NCBI RefSeq assembly: GCF_035084215.1
Contig: NC_090335.1
Location: forward strand, 61,442,001-61,506,000
Direction of reading: 5' to 3'
Origin: Heptranchias perlo
Taxonomy: Eukaryota
Length of the DNA: 64,000 nt
Positions 2,930 to 62,884 of the stretch are shown here, in pieces (within the stretch, counting starts at the first letter, position 1; every line of letters starts with the position of its first letter). The notes under the pieces were generated by a model that had not been told where the DNA came from, ran no database searches, and saw only the letters and a program-made list of their open reading frames with translations. A program made the position numbers and the translations under genes.

Positions 2930-4412
2930 AACATTGCATTTATATAGCGTCTTTTACAACCTGAGGACGTCCAAAAGCGCTTTAAAGCCAAACAAGTACT
3001 TTTGAAGTGTAGTCACTGTTGTAGGGGGTGATTTTAGGAGGCAAATGCGGGTGCATTGGGGACAGGGGGGGCTCCAAAAATCGGACAAATCCCATTCGGG
3101 TTTGGAAGCCGGCTCCAAGTTTCCCAGGGACCCACCTGTGTGCGCGCAGGCTACCCGAAAACGGAAGTCCTGCCGGCAATTAAAGCCAGCAGGATGACAG
3201 TTAAAGAGCCAAATGTACCTCATTAAGGTACTTAAGGCACTTTACCTGTGACAGATGAAGGGATTAGAAAGATTTTTAACTTATCTGGGCGGCTTGCCCA
3301 CCGCTTCCGATTCACACCTGGTGAAACCAGATGTGGAGGGACGGATCAGGGAAAAAGAAACTAAAGAAATTAAATAAAAAACCATGCAAAAAAGTGAAAA
3401 CACTAAATGCACCTACCATTGAAACCTGCTCCGATGTCCGATGTCTCCCATTCCGATGTCCCCCTCTTCACCCTCCCGATGTCCCCCCGATGACCCCCTC
3501 CCGATGTCACCCTCCCGATCTTCCCCCAATATCCCCCTCTTCACCCTCCCCATCTTCCCCCAATCTTCCCCTCTCCATCCCGATCTTCCCTCTCTCCACC
3601 CCGATCTTCCCTCTCTCCACCCCGATCTCCCCGTCTCTCCCCCCTCCGAGCTTCCCCTCTCTTTCCCCCCCCCCCACCCCCGGTCTTCCATTTCAGCGCC
3701 GGATGTTGTCTGACTATCTCTTTCTCGCCACCCCTCCCCCCCCCCCCACTGCATTGCAGGTCCTGATGGCAGCCAGCCTGTCAATCAGGCTAGCTGCCGG
3801 GCGCGAAACCCGGAGAGGATGTTAACCACTATCAATCAACATGCGATCACGTTGGAAACAGTAAGTTTGGTTCATGCGGGTTTGCCAGGCGCCCAATCGC
3901 GCCCCCCCCCCCCCGCTGCCATCCCTATAAAAATAAATTATCTGTATATTAAATAACCACTGCACCATTTTTGTCCAATAGAGCAACTGAACACTTTGTT
4001 TTGTACATGCCAAATACTGTATTCATTTAACAGTTCTGAAAACAGTGCTAACATCGGGGACGTAATGTAAGGAAACACAGCAGCCAACTTGTGCACAGCA
4101 AGGTCCGACAAACAACAATGAGATAATGACTGGATCATCTGCTGTTAGTTGAGGAATAAATATTGGCCAAGAAACCAGGAAGAACTCCCCTGCTCTTCTT
4201 CAAATAGTGTCATGGGGTCTTTTACATCCATCTGAGAGTGCAGATGGGGCCTCAGTTTTACGTCTCACCTGAAAGATGGCATCTCCAAAAGTGCAGCACT
4301 CCCTCAGTACTGCACTGCAGTGTCAGCCCGGATTATGTGCTCAAGTCTCTGGAGTGGGGATCCCTAACCTTCTTACTCAGAGGCGAGAGTGCTACCACTG
4401 AGCCAAGGCTGA
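2930..4412 (-). mobile_element. DeuSINE/SacSINE1-like SINE, split by a MITE (pieces 2930-3023 and 4062-4412)
   Basis: tRNA-like head, conserved core TGCAGCACTCCCTCAGTACTGCACTG and an L2-like tail. It is colinear with the copies at 31090-31505 and 53965-54378 once the insert is removed. Confidence 0.8.
3024..4061. mobile_element. Non-autonomous PIF/Harbinger-like element with internal CT-rich minisatellite
   Basis: 3-bp TSD GTA (3021-3023 and 4062-4064). The 5' ~400 bp is homologous to the element at 55295-56371. Internal CCCGATCTTCCCTCT-type repeats. The right terminal repeat is degenerate. Confidence 0.7.
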
Positions 4413-27060: not shown

Positions 27061-27843
27061 TTACTTGCTGTCAGAGGATAACCGCGACATGCCGGCTGTG
27101 GTCATGCTGGCGACATGGTGAGGTGGCGGCACCTGGCACATGGTACAGGGGCACGGCATCCCTCCCCACTGCTGAAAACTGCTGCCCAGTGCTCCGGAGG
27201 CTGCGGACGCGGATTTGAGGAGACCGTGAGGGGGTCTGATACTGTTCACGGCCGAGATGCTGCCGCCGGAGAGAGAGGCTGAAGTGACGGACGGGGCCAT
27301 GATGGGATGGTGAACCGGATGAGGTACGTGAGAAGCCGGGTGCCCTGGCAGAGGCGCCCCGGCGTGGGCAATGGTCCCGCAAGCCGCCGATGGATGGAAA
27401 CTGCTGTGGTGGCCACCATAGATCTCACTCACCAGCCTCTTCATCTCCTCCAAGGAGTTAGTGAGCATCAGGATGTAGTTTCTGGCTAGGAGCAAGGTGG
27501 CGATTTTGGACAACTTTCTCACAGAAGGTCCATGTGCGTAAGGCATGACTTCCCGGAGCCCATCCATGGCGATGTTGAGGTCGTGCATTCTTTTGCGCTC
27601 CCGGCCGTTGATCTTCAGCCTCAGCTGCTGGAGCTCCGGCTCGCTCATTTGCTTCTTGTCTTTTAGCCTGATGTTGCTCTTGGACAGCTGTCCCCCTCGC
27701 TCGTCGCAGATCTCCGCGCTGCAGTCGTTCTGGGTGGATGACACGTTGCCCGAAAAGCCCGAGGTTGGCTCGTCAGATAGAAAAATATCGTCTGTCTCCG
27801 GAGAGGACGGTTGGCTTGATATTAAACTGGCATCGGAATCCAT
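27061..27843 (-). CDS. OLIG2: Oligodendrocyte transcription factor 2 (bHLH), 260 aa, uninterrupted CDS
   Basis: The N-terminus [16 protein letters not shown], the b[59 protein letters not shown] and the C-terminus [14 protein letters not shown]...RLSSDSK all match vertebrate OLIG2. The ATG is at 27843; the ORF track start at 27879 is a non-ATG codon. Confidence 0.96.
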
Positions 27844-27989
27844 TCGGCAGGCTTGAGGAGGGGTGGGAGAGAAGTTCAAACTTGCTATGGGCGCCCCAGT
27901 TGCTCATACATAAGAGTGTGTGTGTTGTTCTGCCTATCTCCCAGGTAAGATAAAATGTTATCACGGTTTGCGTAGTCGCCTTGGGCTGC

Positions 27990-44238: not shown

Positions 44239-46128
44239 TTGATATTCTCATTCTCTTTTCAAAACATTGTCAATTTTGTGTAATATATCCTGAAAATAAC
44301 AAGTTGAAATCATGCTGTATGATATAAATACTGAACGTGTTAATGCTTTCGTATGAAATTTCTCTGTCTACTATTTTAACAATGGCGTTAATCCATTTAT
44401 TTTAACATTTTGCTACTAATTGATACAGTGCAATTTAATGCCTAAATGGCTACTGTAGGAATAACAGCTACTGAAGGTAAAGCACCAGCCTCGTGAAACG
44501 GAGGATTAAGGTTTGATCATCATAGTCAAAAGTGTCAGCCATTGAGGTAATGTAAGGGCATTCCTCTTCCATGAAAGATGAATGTATTTCCTTGAGTTTA
44601 CTAATGCTTCTTGTGAGTAAAATCTTTGTGTATTCACAGGGATTCAAGGAACCTGTGCATGTTTCTGTGGTTCCTTTGCTGCTTACTATTAGCCTGTGAA
44701 ATTTTTAAGAGGCTTATCCATGCTGACTTTGATATCTGTGTGAGCACTCTGTCTCTTAACCATATTATTATACCTTAATATGCTCTTTCCAGATTATGCA
44801 TATTATCTAATGTCAACAACCTATGTGCCAGTATATTGGATATAGTTTTAATGCATGGTTTGGTTTCTTGGTTTGTTTGCTCAGCTAGATTCTGGCTGGT
44901 TTATTGCCAGACATAATACCATGAAATTCAAAACATTGTACATGTAGGTTGCACCTCAACCCTGCTCTCTCAATATTAAACACAAGTTAGCACTTATGTG
45001 GGAATTGTATTCATTTATGTCAGTTACTTTTCATCCAGGATTCAGAGTTTGGAAGAGTTTAACTCCAATTTAAGATTACAGTAAAACGAGCACCATTCAT
45101 CCAGTAATTTTTAATTAGAAGCTGCTTTAAATTCAGAACAAATTCTAGTTTATGACTACAGTGGCTAGGTCCTTAGCATCATTTGGATTGCACATAAACA
45201 AATTGGAGCTTTGTTCTACTTTTAAGAGTGGTATCCCTGTGTAGCAAAATAGCACGGTGCTCCTTCCTACCCAGATGGTCACGGGTTTGAGCCCCAGGGC
45301 TGCCTGCCACTTGAGTTTGGCTGTCGTTGTTATCAGAGGGTCTTGTCATTTCCGGTCCAGACTGCTAGATGCTCCATCTGCAGGGGAATGAAAAACTGAC
45401 AAAGTGATCTCCCCACATTGGATGACAATCATCTGTTACCTAGTCACAGATTGTCTATGTGTATGTTTCTATACGTTGATCGTTCCTTTGTCAAATAATA
45501 CTGACACTAAACAGAAATTAAATGATTGATGAGTTTACATGATAAGAATGTCTATCAGGACAGCTTAAAGAGACATTGTTTTAGTTGTCACAGCATGACC
45601 AGTGAATTCTTCCACTTGCTTTAGCACATTTAATTAGCACTGTAGCATAAACATTTACATTCAGGTATCTTTTATCTTTTATGTAAACTCTATTGCTCAT
45701 ATTTTCCTCTCTTCAATTAGGTTATCATCTGGAAAGAGCATATTAAGGTAGTGATGTAATGCAAGTGGAATTGTTCAACATTGACCACAAAGTTCTGTAT
45801 CTTCATTCAAGTCTAGAAGGCTGCGCCTCTGCCTGTACCTGCTGGCCCCCCATCAACCCTCTGCCACTGGTACCCCTTCAGCACAGGAGTTCTGTGCCTC
45901 ACTGTCACATTTCAGGATGTTTTGACCATTTTTCCCCACAGAAATTATTTGAAAATAAGAGTAACTTTTAATGTTTTTTTTAAGCAAAAGTGCATTGCCA
46001 CAAGTTTGAAAAAAAAGTCCTGGATGATAGGTGATTAATATACTAAATTGAAGTTTTTTCCTCCAACGACTAAACAATAAGCAATTTGTTCGCCTGTCTG
46101 GGTAATCAAAAAAAAAATCACACTTATA

Positions 46129-50335: not shown

Positions 50336-52139
50336 GAGCCTGTAAAGAGAGCAGATGGGAAAATATAAATTCATAACCACACTTATCCCTTTAGTTACTG
50401 TATTATATCACAGGCACTATGGTGTGCTTGTATACCACCAGTTTGTATAGATACTCTGAGATAATGTACATGGCAATTCATAGAATCTATATGATGCATA
50501 TCAGTTGGTCTGCACAGCCCTCCAACCTCCAAGGGCTGAACATTTTCCAGAGTCCCTTTCCTGAATAAATCTATTTCTTCATCATATGCAATGAGTTATT
50601 TATGCTGTTTGTGCTGATGGAGTGCACTACTTGTTCCATGCTATGCCTTGGAGTTTTGTGCTAGTTTTGCCTTCAAACATAAAGCAATGTGGATGCCGAC
50701 AGGGTGATTTAGCCCATGGAAAATCCTTCTTCCAATACATTCTCTTTGCCATCATAGCATAGATAATATAACTTAGATAACCCCACTATTTTTATGCCTG
50801 TTACCTTATTTGCTGCATCCTCAGAACATTTCTTGGTCTGACTATGAGTTATCTTCATGTGCATGTCTGTCCTGTGCTGCTACTATACACTAATGCTATT
50901 ATCTTACATTTGTGCTTTTTTTTAGAAATCATGCAACTTATTCTGCACTTTCTGCCAAGTACTCCATAAGGATATTACATTGTCTATCGCATATTGGCAC
51001 CGTTGCTGACTCTGCATCACATTGTGGCCCATCTTCCTGTGCCAAACATGTCATCATGTTTCTCCTTTACACAGTTCACGTCCAGGGATTGTTTGTTTTT
51101 TCTCAGTGGTTTTTAACCCTTTAAATATGCACTTTACCGCTGCATTAATGGCTTTTTCAACAGTTATACCAGTTACATGGCTCGTTAGCTGCTTGTGAAT
51201 CATTAAAGGGTCATTAATGCAGGTGTGCCGCAATTGGCTGCTAGTTTCTTATTGCCATTAATGAGACTGCATTCTCACAAATCACATGGTTCAAAGCCAT
51301 GCCTTCCTGCCATTTTGTTAATGAGTTGTAAATTACGATGAAGAAATGAGTCTTTTAACCCGTGTTTTGCCATGAAAGGAAAATGTAATGTTTTGAGAAT
51401 TTGAAATTAATTTTTAAAAATTTGTCATTGTTGAACATACTTGGGCAAAAACTTCTAAATATGTAAATTGGACCAAAGGAAAAATAATCCTGAAATATTA
51501 TTATCTGGTAGGTCATTGTTTATATCAGCATCAAACCATATCACTTAAATAGCCTGATTAACAGCAATCATGGCCCAGACTGTCCTATTCCACCATCCCA
51601 GTCAAGGCAGGCTGGCTTGAAGGTGACAAAAAGCTTTAACCATAAGCGAAGCATGATATTCCAGATCACACAACCCAAATTTTAAATGCAGTTAATTTTA
51701 TTTACTTGGCCTCTCCCCATTAGAGTCACTCACTAATGGAGCGATGGGCAGGGTGATCTGTTCCCATGCCTCTGTTAAAACTTCCTTTTGTTCCTAAGTC
51801 ATTTTCTACATCTCTCCCTTCTGCTGAGTTAATACCTGCCTAAAAATAGTGCACAGAAAAATTTAATATGAGCGTGCTCAGCATTCATAACCAAACTTCA
51901 TACATAGAAAATCCAGGATTTCAAGTCTGAAGTTTAAAACCCAATTTCCCCACTATGGAAAATTTTGAAGTTGGTGTTTATTTCAATGACACAGATAGAA
52001 TATCAGAATTAAGGGAAAAAAGTTAAAAGAAAACTGAGATGCTTATTTGTCTAGCACACTCAAGTTGTACATGAAAAATTTGTGATTATATGCTTTCTCT
52101 AATGGTGAAGCAGAAAAAGTATTCATTCAACCTGATGCT

Positions 52140-54699: not shown

Positions 54700-56490
54700 T
54701 CCATTTATATAGCACCTTTCACATCCTCTGGACATCCCAAAGTGCTTCACAGACGGTGAAGTACTTTTGAAGTGTAGTCATTTTTGTAAGCAAATGCAGC
54801 AGCCCAATTTGTGCTAAGTTAAGTCCCAAAACACTGCAGGTCTTCAGCTCAAGAAAAACTTGACATATAACAAATAAAAACTAGTAAAGATATTTGATCT
54901 TTTTTAGCAAAGAAATATTTCAATGTTATAGACTAGAAATTCGTTGGTGCTGCAGCTGTTTTTCAGGCGCCTAAGCGTCCAATATGGCAGGAAGTGCGCC
55001 ACCTGCCATATTGGTCAAGATAGAAAAAAGGCATCCAGGGCCCACGCCTGAAACAGGCATTAGGCCCTTTACATATGCAAATAAGGGGCCTAACACCTGA
55101 TTGAGGCCCCCTTTGTAAAATTGGTCTGCCTGAGCCGGCTGCATTCTGGAAAATGTGGTGTACATGTGGCCTAATTAACTGTCCCTAAAAGGACAACTGG
55201 AGGCTGCCACCAAAAGGTAATAGTGCCATGGGATCTATTATAACTACCTGAGGGCGGATGAGGCCTCAGCTTAATGTATCATTTTAAAGACAGCGGGCTC
55301 AATTTTAAAGTCAAATTGCGGGTGCATTGGGGGCAGGGGACTATGAAAATGGCGAAAATCCCAAGTGGGTTCGGAAGCCGGCTCTAACCCGTCGACTTCC
55401 GGGTTCCCCACAGAAGCACCTGTGTTCATGCGCGCTTCACGAATGCAGAAGTCCCGCCTGCAATTAAAGCTGGCGGGATGATAGTTAAAGAACCAAATGT
55501 ACCTCATTGAGATACTTAAGGTACTTTATTTCCGACATAGTAGATAGTTAAAATAATTTTAAACTTACCTGGGCGGCTTTCCCATGGCTTCTGATTCACG
55601 CCTGGTGAATCCAGGCATGAAGGGCCAGATCAGGCAAAAATAAACAAAATAAATGAAATAAAAAACCATTGCACAAAGTTAAAAAACAAAATAAACCTAC
55701 CTTTCCACCCTGCTCCGGTATCCGATGTCTCCCTCTCCGATGTCGCTCTCAGCCCACGATGTCTCCCTCTCTGATATCCCTCTCAGCCCTCGATGTCTCC
55801 CTCTCTGATGTCCCTCCCCCCCGATGTCCCTCACCGATTTCCCCCTCTCCCCCCCATCTCCCTCTCTGATCTCCCCCTCTCCCCCCGATGTTCCTCTCCA
55901 ATCTCCCCCCTCCCCTCCCCGATGTCCCCCACGATCTCCCCCTCTCCCCCGATCTTTCAATCTCCCCCCGATCTTCCACTCTCCCCCCGATCTTTCCCTC
56001 TCCCCCAATCTTCCCCTTTCCCCCAATCCTCCCCTCTCAACCCCCCGATCTTCCTATCTCCCCCAATCTTCCCCTCTCCCCCCGATCTTCCCCTCTCCCC
56101 CCACCCCTGATCTTCAGCACCCTCCACTCTCTGTTCCAGCGCAGGATGATGTCTCGCTCCCTCTCTTTCTCTCCACCACCCACCCCCCCCACCTCAGTGT
56201 TGCAGCTCCTGTCGGCAGACAGCCTGTCAATCAAACCCAAAAACAACTTCAATCACCATCAATTACATCGCAATCGCGTTGGAAAAGGTACGTTTTTTCA
56301 TTCGGGTTTGCCACGTGCAACTTCACCCCCCCCCCCCGCTGCCAACCCGCCACCATTTCAAAATTGAGTCCAGCATCTCTGATAGTGTTGCACTCCCTCA
56401 GTACTGCACTGAAGTGTCTGCCTAGATTATGTGAACCCATGACCTTTTGACTCAGAGGTGATAGTGCTTCTACCACTGAACCAAAACCAA
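54700..56490 (-). mobile_element. Fragmented DeuSINE-like SINE (54700-54815, 55220-55294, 56372-56490) hosting MITE insertions
   Basis: AAAGACAGC|ATCTCTGATAGTG rejoins once the 55295-56371 insert is removed. Confidence 0.7.
55295..56371. mobile_element. Non-autonomous PIF/Harbinger-like element with ~400-bp CT-rich minisatellite
   Basis: TIRs GGGCTCAATTTT / AAAATTGAGTCC, 3-bp TSD AGC, and CCCCGATCTTCCCTCT-type repeats at ~55720-56115. Confidence 0.85.
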
Positions 56491-57514
56491 CGCCTAGAAA
56501 CTAATGCATCTATATTGTTTAAAGAATTGAATATGTCCCTTTCAGTGTGGTGTCACTTTGTAGTAAGCCCATTGCTCGTGGGAACCACATAATTACAAAA
56601 TCTCTTCCTGTTGGCTGCCAGCAAGCACGTGACTGTTTTCTCCAATTACATGTTTAATAGATTCCCAAGTCTGCCATAATGTTGGAAGGGATTACTGAGT
56701 AATGACCTGTTTGTGGCGGGCTTCTTCTTCAGCTGGAAAACTCTAAGACTTTTTATGACGTCATAAATTTTATTGAGCTTTCTGTTAAATTTTATTGACT
56801 TTTTCTTGTGTTCACCACTCCTAGGCTAAATCCTGGGTCTGCTGAGCTATTCCTGCAGCCTTGTAGATTGGGTTCAATTCACAAGGTGAAAAGCTCAGAG
56901 GGTTTTTCTCATTTTGGACACTTTATGCGCCTTTAATTTGTAATATTTCTCGAGCTATATTTCTTTCCTCATTCTGTTCCTGTAGTTCTGTGGATTGTTG
57001 GAACCTTGTGGACAATCAGGCTTGTTTCCATCTATTTCTATCGCTATTTTATTTTCCAGCCCCATTTATTTATTTTAAATGATCACTAGTAGATAAAGAA
57101 CCATCGCAGGTCATCACATCAAAGGAAATTTGACACATGACAAACAAAAACCAGTAAAAAATCTTTTTTTAGCAGAGAAACATTGCAACATTATATTTTT
57201 AGCCAACATTTATCCTGTGAGATTTTCAAAAATAAATATATTTGTTAACTCAGAACACAGAAAATATATTTCGTAACAAGATGTTTAAGCATTTTTTTAA
57301 TTGCCGAAACTTCCTCCTTGAACAAACTGCTTTGTATCTATTACTATTTGACACTGATAGAATTAAAGCTGTGACAAAATTTAGTGGCACGTGTGATCCC
57401 GCAACTGGATATCATAAGAGAGTGTTAGCGTCAAAAATATTAATCATGCTGAGATCGGTGCAAAATAATCCTTCAGTTGTACAGGTTATGTTTTCATCCT
57501 TTAGGCCTAAAATT

Positions 57515-58389
57515 AGGAAATATCTAGGCTCGTTATTGCAGTACAACTCTGCCTTTATCACAAGTGTAACACTGTAAATTAGTTACGTGTCCTTGTAGTG
57601 TAATGGAATCAAGAGGTCCGGATAATACCATAAACCACAAAAATAAAGTATTAATTGCTATTATTTCTAATATTAATTGAACTCCCTTGACATTGCTTAA
57701 TGAGTGAATACATCTGTTAAAATAACAGGGAAAGAAATTTCATATAAATGTTTTAAATGTGTATACGCTTATTTTCATTAAGTTTACACTTAAACTTAAT
57801 GAAAATAAGCGTATACACATTTAAAACATTTATATGAAATTTCTTTCCCTGTTATTTTAACAGATGTATTCACTCATTTTTAACAAAAAGTTGATTTTCA
57901 CATCACTATTTTTTTAATTGATTTTTATTGAGTGTAATTTACACTTTGTTCTCCTTCATTTTTTTTAGCAAAAAGTATTCCATTATCTGACTGTGATCAG
58001 TTTTGATCACGTGATTGCTATCCTTGAGATTTACATAGTGCCTTTTGCTTCATATTCTTATCATTATTTTTATTTTCGTTAAGCTTACACTTCATTGCCC
58101 ATTTACTGCTGCTAAAATATATTAATCATTTAGTTTCCAGTCACTGTAATACTGAGGAAAAATACAGCAAAGTTCTCCAAGCCCATATTTTTGCATTTCT
58201 CTTCATTAGCAATGTCAAGGGAGATCAATTAATATTATAAATAATAGCAATTGATACTTTATTTTGTGGTTTATGGTATTATCCGGACCTCTTGATTCCA
58301 TTACATTACAAGGTCATGTAACTAATTTACAGTGTTACACTTGTGATAAAGGCAGAGTTGTACTGCAATAATGAGCATAGGTGTTTCCT
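57515..58389. repeat. Outer inverted repeat with ~187-bp arms (57515-57702 and 58204-58389), roughly 90% identical
   Basis: For example TTATTGCAGTACAACTCTGCCTTTATCACAAGTGTAACACTGTAAATTAGTTAC is matched by its reverse complement at ~58317-58371. Confidence 0.95.
57699..57878. repeat. Perfect AT-rich palindrome: 88-bp arms, 4-nt spacer
   Basis: 57699-57786 is the exact reverse complement of 57791-57878; the spacer is CACT. Confidence 0.97.
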
Positions 58390-62547: not shown

Positions 62548-62884
62548 AACATTTTCTGTTTCAACTTCTAACTTCCAGCACTTGCAATTTTTCTTTTTGT
62601 CAACTGAAGTCAGAATCTCCTTAAAGCTATAACATAACTTTTCTTGTTAAATTTTTTAGCTTCAATGAAATTACGAATGAAGTGGCATCATGTACAGTGA
62701 AATCTTGTTATTGCCACTTCCGTCTTATTGTCACCTTTTTGATTGATAAACTAAAAATGGCAGTAACATGAATTTAACAAATCTTTCTGAAATTACAGTT
62801 CGTGCCAGACGTAGGCCTTAAAATTACATTGTGCAAATATTGGACTATGAATGCTTAACATATTTGTATCCTAATATTTGGAGT

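What the first reader, a model, noticed from the sequence alone, without database searches (positions are those of the whole stretch)
57515..58389. Nested fold-back: perfect 88-bp AT-rich palindrome inside an older ~187-bp inverted repeat
Seen: the layout is A-B-loop-B'-C-A'. B/B' are 100% identical over 88 bp with a 4-nt spacer, while A/A' carry multiple substitutions and indels. A abuts B directly, and C (~325 bp) is unpaired. No TSD, ORF or similarity to other repeats in the window was found. Inference: either a large inverted duplication that lost C' from one arm, with the centre kept identical by hairpin-mediated conversion, or a recent second fold-back event. It could extrude a cruciform (like palindromic AT-rich repeats) or, if transcribed, form a branched long dsRNA as a Dicer/ADAR substrate. 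It lies between two candidate OLIG2 enhancer blocks.
Basis: partly seen in the sequence, partly recalled or inferred. Interest (0 to 1): 0.7.

Follow-up and report, generated by a model that had tools for sequence, protein, structure and literature searches.

The report
Fold-back copy inside an old transposon
This nested mirror repeat is a 271-base backwards copy of neighbouring DNA that splits an old miniature transposon and was not seen in two related species; it was likely made by a DNA-copying slip and likely re-copied at its centre later, so it is probably an ordinary mutational scar with no function shown.

Summary
The structure is real: B/B' 88/88 around a 4-nt loop, A/A' 177/189. Short contigs from the same sample carry the apex at flank depth, so an assembly error is unlikely.

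B' is not unique. It is the left arm of an old, abundant, ~203-bp palindromic MITE (3-bp target duplication, PIF/Harbinger-like). The MITE's first 12 bp lie stranded just left of A. So A+B (57516-57786, 271 nt) is an insertion inside the MITE: an inverted copy of downstream B'-C-A' that lacks C, joined at a 5-nt microhomology. Two related organisms hold A' in its right-hand context; no contig showed A on the left.

The pre-event site was a 6/8 quasi-palindrome, a fold-back seed. A and A' have both mutated since; B has not (p about 0.004-0.03). The family's own hairpins, of similar geometry, decayed to 69%, so chronic conversion looks weak. A late re-copy at the apex is more likely.

This is a known kind of event (four-point template switch). 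The scan has noted similar fold-backs in other genomes, and this genome has another. No function is shown.

The parts
57501..57503 (+). TTA just outside the MITE's left end; candidate left target-site duplication of the old MITE insertion (right-hand copy not found)
   Evidence: family has a 3-bp TSD, 5 of 19 copies against 0.9 expected
57504..57515 (+). Stranded left terminus (first 12 bp, one base shorter than consensus) of the palindromic MITE; ancestral sequence; left switch point
   Evidence: terminal PWM score reached by 2 of 127,976 window positions; organism C's left-flank contig runs into a matching MITE end
57515..57703 (-). A: inverted copy of A' (derived arm, older layer; 10 substitutions and 2 indels against A')
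   Evidence: not seen in left-flank context in organisms B and C
57699..57703 (+). AATGA microhomology shared by the end of A and the start of B; equals the TCATT repeats that bracket C (57874-57878, 58203-58207)
   Evidence: 5 nt or more in 1.1% of random deletions
57699..57786 (-). B: perfect inverted copy of B' (derived arm, younger layer)
   Evidence: contig of 88 nt at double depth
57787..57790 (+). Loop CACT; the four bases that follow the MITE terminus in the family consensus; fold-back apex
57791..57878 (+). B': ancestral left arm of the MITE (family match continues to about 57889, into C)
   Evidence: 61 of 91 columns match the arm consensus; organism B's contig covers 57832 onward
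57879..58202 (+). C: ancestral single-copy spacer, missing from the copied arm (329 nt between the TCATT repeats counted with one repeat); starts with the MITE centre; the MITE's right arm is not recognisable
   Evidence: (organism B contig 57832-58192)
58203..58389 (+). A': ancestral template of A, continuous with C and with the right flank
   Evidence: contigs of organisms B and C continue into the right flank; paralogue L006 aligns across the C/A' boundary, score 75 against 28 for the A/B side

Best explanation
The left half (A+B, 271 nt) is an inverted copy of the DNA to its right, inserted 12 bp inside an old MITE, likely by a fold-back template switch, and its centre (B) was likely re-copied in a later, second switch. 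Step 1 (shown by homology): an old ~203-bp palindromic MITE sat here before organism A split from organisms B and C; its right arm has decayed or been lost. Step 2 (junctions shown, mechanism inferred): mutations left a small quasi-palindrome 8 bp inside the MITE end (TAAAATTA-CACT-TAAACTTA, 6 of 8 pairs). A nascent or resected bottom strand folded back there, copied B', C and A' off itself (about 600 nt), then rejoined the original template at the point it had left, with 1 nt of microhomology. No sequence was lost and TTA was duplicated. This is a four-point event of type 1-4-3-2 (mirror 3-2-1-4). Step 3 (shown): A and A' then both drifted, 5.3% apart, against about 10-16% to the relatives, so the event dates to roughly the last third to half of the time since that split. 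Step 4 (inferred): a later switch primed at the same apex re-copied B from B' and returned at the TCATT microhomology. This one step would explain why B is perfect, why identity stops exactly at the microhomology, and why C is missing from the left arm. C may instead have been lost earlier. The product is most likely neutral. My odds: copy direction and fold-back origin about 0.9; a late discrete re-copy about 0.65-0.7.
For: MITE anatomy. With A+B removed in silico, the family HMM matches from model position 2 to 103, against 23-106 for the present sequence. The stranded terminus is as good as 2 of 127,976 positions and sits exactly at A's edge. The window's palindrome is head-to-head, unlike the family's own. 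The exact head-to-head pattern hits 2 places genome-wide (the window and one other); the natural orientation hits 15. Relatives: every long A-like contig in organisms B and C (3 records in X6, X8, X9) is on the minus strand, stops at 57515 and continues into the right flank of A'. Organism C's left-flank contig runs 102 nt past 57485 without being laid on A. Polarity: of 5 readable A/A' substitutions, the relatives show the A' letter at 3 (57587, 57598, 57667) and, by absence of a listed difference, the A letter at 2 (57590, 57652), so both arms aged. Seed: a 6/8 quasi-palindrome occurs at 0.9% of window positions; a microhomology of 5 nt or more in 1.1% of random deletions. Two ages: 0 of 88 against 12 of 189, p 0.004-0.013, 0.011 with GC weighting, Fisher 0.02-0.03. 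Chronic conversion is weak: natural hairpins average 68.6% (maximum 78%, 40 copies), and the L071 fold-back has mismatches within about 30 bp of its apex.
Against: No relative's contig joins the left flank to B', so the pre-event allele is reconstructed, not observed. A plain pairwise score did not single out the true join: 68, against a median of 62 over 1,200 control joins, six of which scored higher and three the same. The pre-event alignment needs a 6-7-nt insertion relative to consensus. The two-age statistic is modest, and the site was picked because B is perfect. Family arms are slightly more alike within copies than between copies (68.1% against 66.7%, 40 of 2,000 permutations), so some arm correction or subfamily structure exists. 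Under step 4 as written, a ~600-bp-arm palindrome had to persist while it drifted by 5%. All full-length support comes from one sample.
Confidence: 0.68

Rival explanations
1. One old fold-back event with early loss of C (skipped during synthesis or deleted by microhomology joining). B and B' have since been kept identical by repeated hairpin-mediated correction, while A/A', held apart by C, drifted.
For: Same junctions as the best explanation. An 88-bp perfect stem with a 4-nt loop is a strong hairpin (-94.8 kcal/mol, DNA parameters). Family hairpins show a small within-copy excess of identity (68.1% against 66.7%, p 0.02; concordant changes 4.5% against 3.9%, p 0.056; 26 copies). Early loss avoids a long-lived 600-bp palindrome.
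Against: Natural hairpins of similar geometry decayed to 60-78%, longest perfect run 15 (40 copies). Other palindromes here carry stem mismatches (88-94% in four of the five palindromic repeats in 264 kb; L071 98%).
Confidence: 0.17
2. One event made A+B; B is identical to B' by chance, with no later correction.
For: Simplest history; the site was selected for being perfect; Fisher p is only 0.02-0.03.
Against: 4.5-5.6 differences expected, 0 seen (p 0.004-0.013).
Confidence: 0.08
3. The hairpin is kept by selection, as a cruciform or a transcribed double-stranded RNA acting on the bHLH (OLIG2-like) gene 29.7 kb away.
For: Position: about 30 kb upstream of the gene, and mouse has an Olig2 enhancer 33 kb upstream (10.1101/721043, passages). 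Perfect stem.
Against: The structure was not seen in two relatives. Its parts differ from them by 10-16%, like the flanks. Rfam gives only sub-threshold miRNA-hairpin matches (38 bits against a cut-off of 72). Perfect stems of 81-88 bp occur elsewhere nearby as ordinary repeat products.
Confidence: 0.03
4. A and A' are the terminal inverted repeats of a non-autonomous transposon that carries B-B'-C, or two MITEs inserted head to head.
For: Long inverted ends; B and B' are MITE arms; Harbinger-type transposases are abundant in the genome (150 of 150 scored candidates pass).
Against: A matched only A' and one partial 79% stretch in the genome search (which skips very common words). Only 6 contigs of X2 lay on 57200-57712. 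Relatives have A' and C without A. The MITE end lies outside A, and B has no left arm of its own. No duplication flanks A...A'.
Confidence: 0.02
5. B is a sequencing or assembly fold-back artefact.
For: Perfect identity with a 4-nt loop; the supporting runs are from the same sample; no piece spans the whole structure, and the A/B junction contig is just under the tool's bridging rule.
Against: Apex and A/B junction contigs have flank-level depth (11.4, 12.2 against 10.3-11.3) and the B contig has double depth (22.1). X2 repeats the A/B junction contig. The junctions use exact microhomologies inside an older, diverged duplication.
Confidence: 0.02

Closest known systems
Short-range template-switch events, four-point model, type 1-4-3-2 / 3-2-1-4 (Walker et al. 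2021, PMC7954356; passages read)
   Same: A local reverse-complement copy of nearby sequence that makes a single inverted repeat; ancestral hairpin potential at the switch point; net gain of length.
   Different: The copied tract spans about 600 nt (271 nt kept), against a median of 12 and a maximum of 128 in their gold-standard set (a short-range search). There is an extra internal junction, and the tract has two apparent ages.
Local fold-back inversions (templated inverted insertions) at double-strand breaks in yeast (Yu et al. 2024, PMC11724301; abstract and outline only)
   Same: Fold-back on a microhomology beside the break, synthesis, then capture of the other end with little homology.
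   Different: Theirs are mostly 5-34 bp and induced; this is a germline event of hundreds of bases, with no break shown.
Secondary rearrangement of palindromic junctions, ODIRA model (Brewer et al. 2024, PMC10766186; passages read)
   Same: A palindrome formed at a short interrupted inverted repeat, later rearranged through microhomology with loss from one arm.
   Different: Their events are kb to Mb inverted triplications whose secondary deletions widen the spacer. Here the deletion is inside one arm and leaves the perfect apex in place.
Tourist-like (PIF/Harbinger) MITEs (PMC4561436; passages read) - for the host element only
   Same: Short non-coding element with inverted ends and a 3-bp target duplication.
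   Different: The whole element is a palindrome; the TSDs seen are TAT, ATA, TAA and AAG, not only TTA/TAA; no autonomous partner was found. The family's database name could not be checked.
Palindromic AT-rich repeats (PATRRs) of human translocations (recalled, no call)
   Same: AT-rich (77% A+T) perfect stem with a tiny loop that could extrude a cruciform.
   Different: The arms are 88 bp rather than several hundred; it is MITE-derived; no rearrangement hotspot or cruciform is shown.

Membership tests
Four-point template-switch / fold-back inverted duplication | Inserted sequence is the reverse complement of nearby ancestral sequence | tested here: met
   A = rc(A'), B = rc(B'); A', C and B' present in relatives, A not seen on the left
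Four-point template-switch / fold-back inverted duplication | Direction fixed by an ancestral (pre-event) allele | tested here: inconclusive
   Reconstructed from the split MITE and consistent with contig ends in two relatives, but no contig joins the left flank to B'
Four-point template-switch / fold-back inverted duplication | Microhomology or quasi-palindrome at the switch points | tested here: met
   6/8 quasi-palindrome at the apex (0.9% background), 5-nt TCATT at the inner junction (1.1%), 1 nt at the outer junction
Four-point template-switch / fold-back inverted duplication | Made in replication rather than in break repair | not testable with these tools
   Both routes give the same junctions
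PIF/Harbinger (Tourist-like) MITE - host element B' | Short, non-coding, multicopy, with terminal inverted repeats | tested here: met
   About 203-bp palindrome; 1,179 candidates, 40 scored, 68 matches; consensus self-complementary; 8 places in 264 kb counting this one
PIF/Harbinger (Tourist-like) MITE - host element B' | 3-bp target-site duplication | tested here: met
   5 of 19 copies with both ends placed (of 44 tried), 0.9 expected, p 0.001; 0 of 19 for 2, 4 or 5 bp. At this locus only the left TTA is visible
PIF/Harbinger (Tourist-like) MITE - host element B' | TIRs shared with an autonomous element that codes for a DDE_Tnp_4 transposase | tested here: inconclusive
   20 transposase loci (of 150 matches), 1.5-kb flanks: no exact 13-nt terminus (best 9-11 of 13); one locus, L100, holds an 80-nt family arm
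Non-autonomous transposon with A/A' as TIRs | Multiple genomic copies with a TSD | tested here: not met
   relatives keep A' and C without A
PATRR-like cruciform site | Arms of several hundred bp (feature recalled) | tested here: not met
   88-bp perfect arms
PATRR-like cruciform site | Cruciform extrusion and recurrent breakage | not testable with these tools
   Only a single-strand fold was computed (-94.8 kcal/mol)
miRNA or hairpin-RNA gene | Rfam family match at the curated score | tested here: not met
   Best 38.4 bits against 72
miRNA or hairpin-RNA gene | Processed small RNA or edited dsRNA | not testable with these tools
   Needs raw RNA reads of this organism

The most novel reading that the evidence does not exclude
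A perfect short-loop hairpin apex acts as a reusable priming site in the vertebrate germline: the same apex fired twice, millions of years apart, first building a ~600-bp palindrome and then trimming and re-perfecting it. Such nested palindromes would be two-clock records of recurrent fold-back repair at one site, readable wherever an old repeat acts as a ruler, and here next to the OLIG2 upstream control region.
Probability: 0.3. Interest if true: 0.5.

Novelty: new member of a known kind. Interest (0 to 1): 0.27.

Why it matters
It is a clean natural example in which the pre-event sequence, all switch points, the copy direction and a relative date can be read, because the event split an old MITE. 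It suggests that a fold-back apex can be re-used, and that deletion can spare the apex rather than open it. The family's own hairpins give an internal control: long-term arm correction is weak in this genome. It also warns that perfect 80-90-bp stems are common here (three in about 470 kb examined) and need no function. Nothing ties it to regulation of the nearby gene.

Tried and rejected
Rfam scan: only sub-threshold hairpin matches.

Expression: no RNA holder listed; not used as evidence either way.

Coverage holes: right of 58352 in X1, and over A in X5/X7. Not used as evidence; one search showed that such records exist.

B/B' as the MITE's own hairpin kept perfect: rejected. The family centre lies at the C end of B', and the window's apex is at the family's outer end.

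Apex as a second MITE terminus (two MITEs head to head): rejected. The terminal score is 3-6 there against 16.7 at 57504, and the head-to-head pattern is not recurrent (2 places; exact match only, so insensitive).

Transposase cut at the TIR as the trigger: disfavoured by inference. The switch is 12 bp inside the end, the terminus is kept on the left, and the copy was already far from consensus.

Error-prone synthesis as the source of the A/A' differences: disfavoured, because changes fall on both arms.

Pairwise score of the reconstructed join against 1,200 control joins did not discriminate.

Autonomous partner: not found in 20 loci. Gli-motif scan at chance level.

Literature: four searches. 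One search (29 papers, 20 listed; titles and abstract starts only) showed no paper naming this MITE family. No repeat library was available, so it may well be catalogued. One search found nothing useful on germline palindrome revision. No supplementary files were read; Walker's S1 Table on event types may bear on how common this type is.

No earlier scan notes near this place.

Full report
Observation. The layout A-B-loop-B'-C-A' is in the sequence. B (57699-57786) and B' (57791-57878) are 88 of 88 complementary around CACT. A (57515-57703) and A' (58203-58389) differ at 10 substitutions and 2 single-base indels in 189 columns. C (57879-58202) has no partner. A and B overlap by 5 nt (AATGA), which is the reverse complement of a TCATT found at both ends of C (57874-57878, 58203-58207). 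The window is G000:C11:61,442,001-61,506,000 in a 3.25-Gb genome.

Artefact check. Of 13 listed runs, four are from one sample of organism A and hold 94-95% of the sampled words; this may be the assembly's own sample. Run X1's contigs tile the structure as a graph with a collapsed hairpin would: flank to 57562 (depth 10.3), A/B junction 57613-57728 (12.2), apex 57757-57820 (11.4), B alone (88 nt, 22.1), B' end-C-A' 57849-58291 (11.3). X2 repeats the left part and lists no loose end behind 57515 (15 of 16 rows shown). This argues against an assembly error and suggests both haplotypes carry the structure. It is one sample, contigs rather than raw reads, no piece spans the whole, and the A/B junction contig has only 25-30 letters on the B side.

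B' is an old MITE arm. The genome search returned, besides the locus itself, 13 other places: 12 match B/B' at 72-100% over 30-98 nt and one matches the C/A' boundary. Six of the 12 are decayed palindromes of about 110-260 bp. One copy used as query gave 1,179 candidates, of which 40 were scored, with 68 matches at 67-84% apart from the self-hit. Twenty-eight copies gave a self-complementary consensus of 203 bp that begins GGCC. A 3-bp target duplication is seen in 5 of 19 copies with both ends placed (44 tried; 0.9 expected; p 0.001), and none of 2, 4 or 5 bp. A 3-bp TSD marks Tourist-like PIF/Harbinger MITEs (PMC4561436, passages). No autonomous partner was found in 20 transposase loci. B' runs from near the family's outer end to its centre, and the match continues about 10 nt into C. 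So the window's palindrome is head-to-head, the opposite of the family's own. The exact head-to-head pattern occurs at 2 places in the genome, the natural one at 15.

The insertion site. Positions 57504-57515, right at A's left edge, are the MITE's missing terminus; only 2 of 127,976 window positions score as well. The loop CACT is what follows that terminus in the consensus. With 57516-57786 removed in silico, the family profile matches from position 2 to 103 instead of 23 to 106 (30.6 against 28.0 bits), at the cost of a 6-7-nt insertion. A plain pairwise score did not separate this join from controls (68; median 62 of 1,200; six higher, three equal). The argument therefore rests on the position of the terminus, not on that score. 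The restored site is a quasi-palindrome, TAAAATTA-CACT-TAAACTTA, 6 of 8 pairs; 0.9% of window positions have one as good. The 271-nt insert is flanked by TTA on both sides, as expected if those three bases primed the fold-back.

Relatives. Organisms B and C differ from the window by about 10-16% over the laid pieces. Organism B has a contig over 57832-58192 (B' and C). In one search the three long A-like contigs (X6, X8, X9) lie on the minus strand, stop at 57515 and continue into the right flank of A'. One further 39-nt piece in X9 is a paralogue. X9's left-flank contig aligns to 57485 and runs 102 nt further. So flank-MITE end and B'-C-A'-flank are ancestral, and A+B is the copy. No contig joins the left flank to B', so the empty allele is inferred. 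At 5 readable A/A' substitutions the relatives side with A' at 3 and with A at 2 (the latter read from the absence of a listed difference). Both arms have aged, which places the first event at roughly a third to a half of the way back to the split.

Why B is perfect. At A's rate, 4.5-5.6 differences are expected in B and none is seen (p 0.004-0.013; GC-weighted 0.011; Fisher 0.02-0.03). This is modest, and the site was chosen for being perfect. The family supplies a control for chronic hairpin correction. Forty natural hairpins (42 tried) with about 100-bp arms and a short loop are 68.6% complementary on average, at most 78%, with a longest perfect run of 15. Within-copy identity exceeds between-copy identity only slightly: 68.1% against 66.7% in the 26 copies not picked by a two-arm pattern, 40 of 2,000 permutations. 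I therefore prefer a discrete late re-copy primed at the apex and ending at TCATT. It would account at once for perfect identity, for its end at the microhomology (5 nt or more in 1.1% of random deletions) and for the loss of C'. Early loss of C' with repeated correction remains possible.

How unusual. In 264 kb around the locus there is one other perfect 88-bp stem, and in 209 kb of other loci one of 81 bp. Both belong to a young repeat family, and four more palindromes of that family are 88-94%. A unique-looking 493-bp fold-back at 98% turned up by chance (L071). Earlier scan notes report similar fold-backs in other genomes (unchecked).

Comparison. It works like a four-point template switch of type 1-4-3-2 / 3-2-1-4, one of the majority patterns in great apes, though longer than their maximum of 128 nt (PMC7954356, passages). 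It also resembles yeast fold-back insertions at breaks (PMC11724301, abstract), and the inner junction resembles the microhomology-led secondary rearrangements of palindromes (PMC10766186, passages). It is not a transposon with A/A' as ends, not an Rfam family, and too short for a PATRR as I recall them. Mouse Olig2 has an enhancer 33 kb upstream (10.1101/721043, passages), but A is no more conserved than its flanks and Gli-like sites are at chance level.

Verdict. Real, well explained, a new member of a known kind; most likely neutral. Interest 0.27.

Noticed in passing
window 44304-44405, 51825-51909, 62814-62870; loci L005, L013, L016, L026-L055, L058-L070, L072: An abundant old ~203-bp fully palindromic MITE family (GGCC ends, 3-bp TSD, copies about 78% to consensus); 8 places in 264 kb by profile search. 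Family-like pieces were also laid from contigs of organisms B and C. Database name not checked.
   Followed up: partly
window 14395-14552; beside the window at -5604..-5427, -96800..-96553, 69617-69768, 146002-146173 (window coordinates); L072:234-411: A young repeat family often forms 150-250-bp head-to-head palindromes (88-99%), including a perfect 88-bp stem with a 2-nt loop. A copy of this end lies about 250 nt after a GIY-YIG-like ORF (15478-16071; Pfam E 7e-4, under the cut-off), which suggests Penelope-like elements (label recalled).
   Followed up: partly
L071:1301-1793 (G000:C34, about 29.45 Mb): A 493-bp palindrome, 484 of 494 columns matched, with no other match in the DNA held; likely another fold-back duplication of unique sequence.
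   Followed up: partly
organism B contigs (X6, X8), equivalent to window about 58233: Organism B's A' contig stops matching about 30 nt before the C boundary and continues in unrelated sequence; likely a lineage-specific insertion between C and A'.
   Followed up: no
window 27061-27903 (-): Intronless bHLH open frame (Pfam HLH E 3e-14), start codon at 27843; OLIG2-like by recollection.
   Followed up: partly
L006:1500-1585 (G000:C34, about 22.39 Mb) and window 58160-58242: A 79% match across the C/A' boundary; may be a second very old low-copy repeat.
   Followed up: partly
window 55720-56102 and 3453-3671: C-rich minisatellite-like arrays (periods 15-65) inside a dispersed repeat.
   Followed up: no
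G000, genome-wide: DDE_Tnp_4 (Harbinger-type) transposase: 34,316 candidates, 150 scored and all over the cut-off, most without stops in the match, many in open frames of about 500 aa; suggests a recent large expansion.
   Followed up: no
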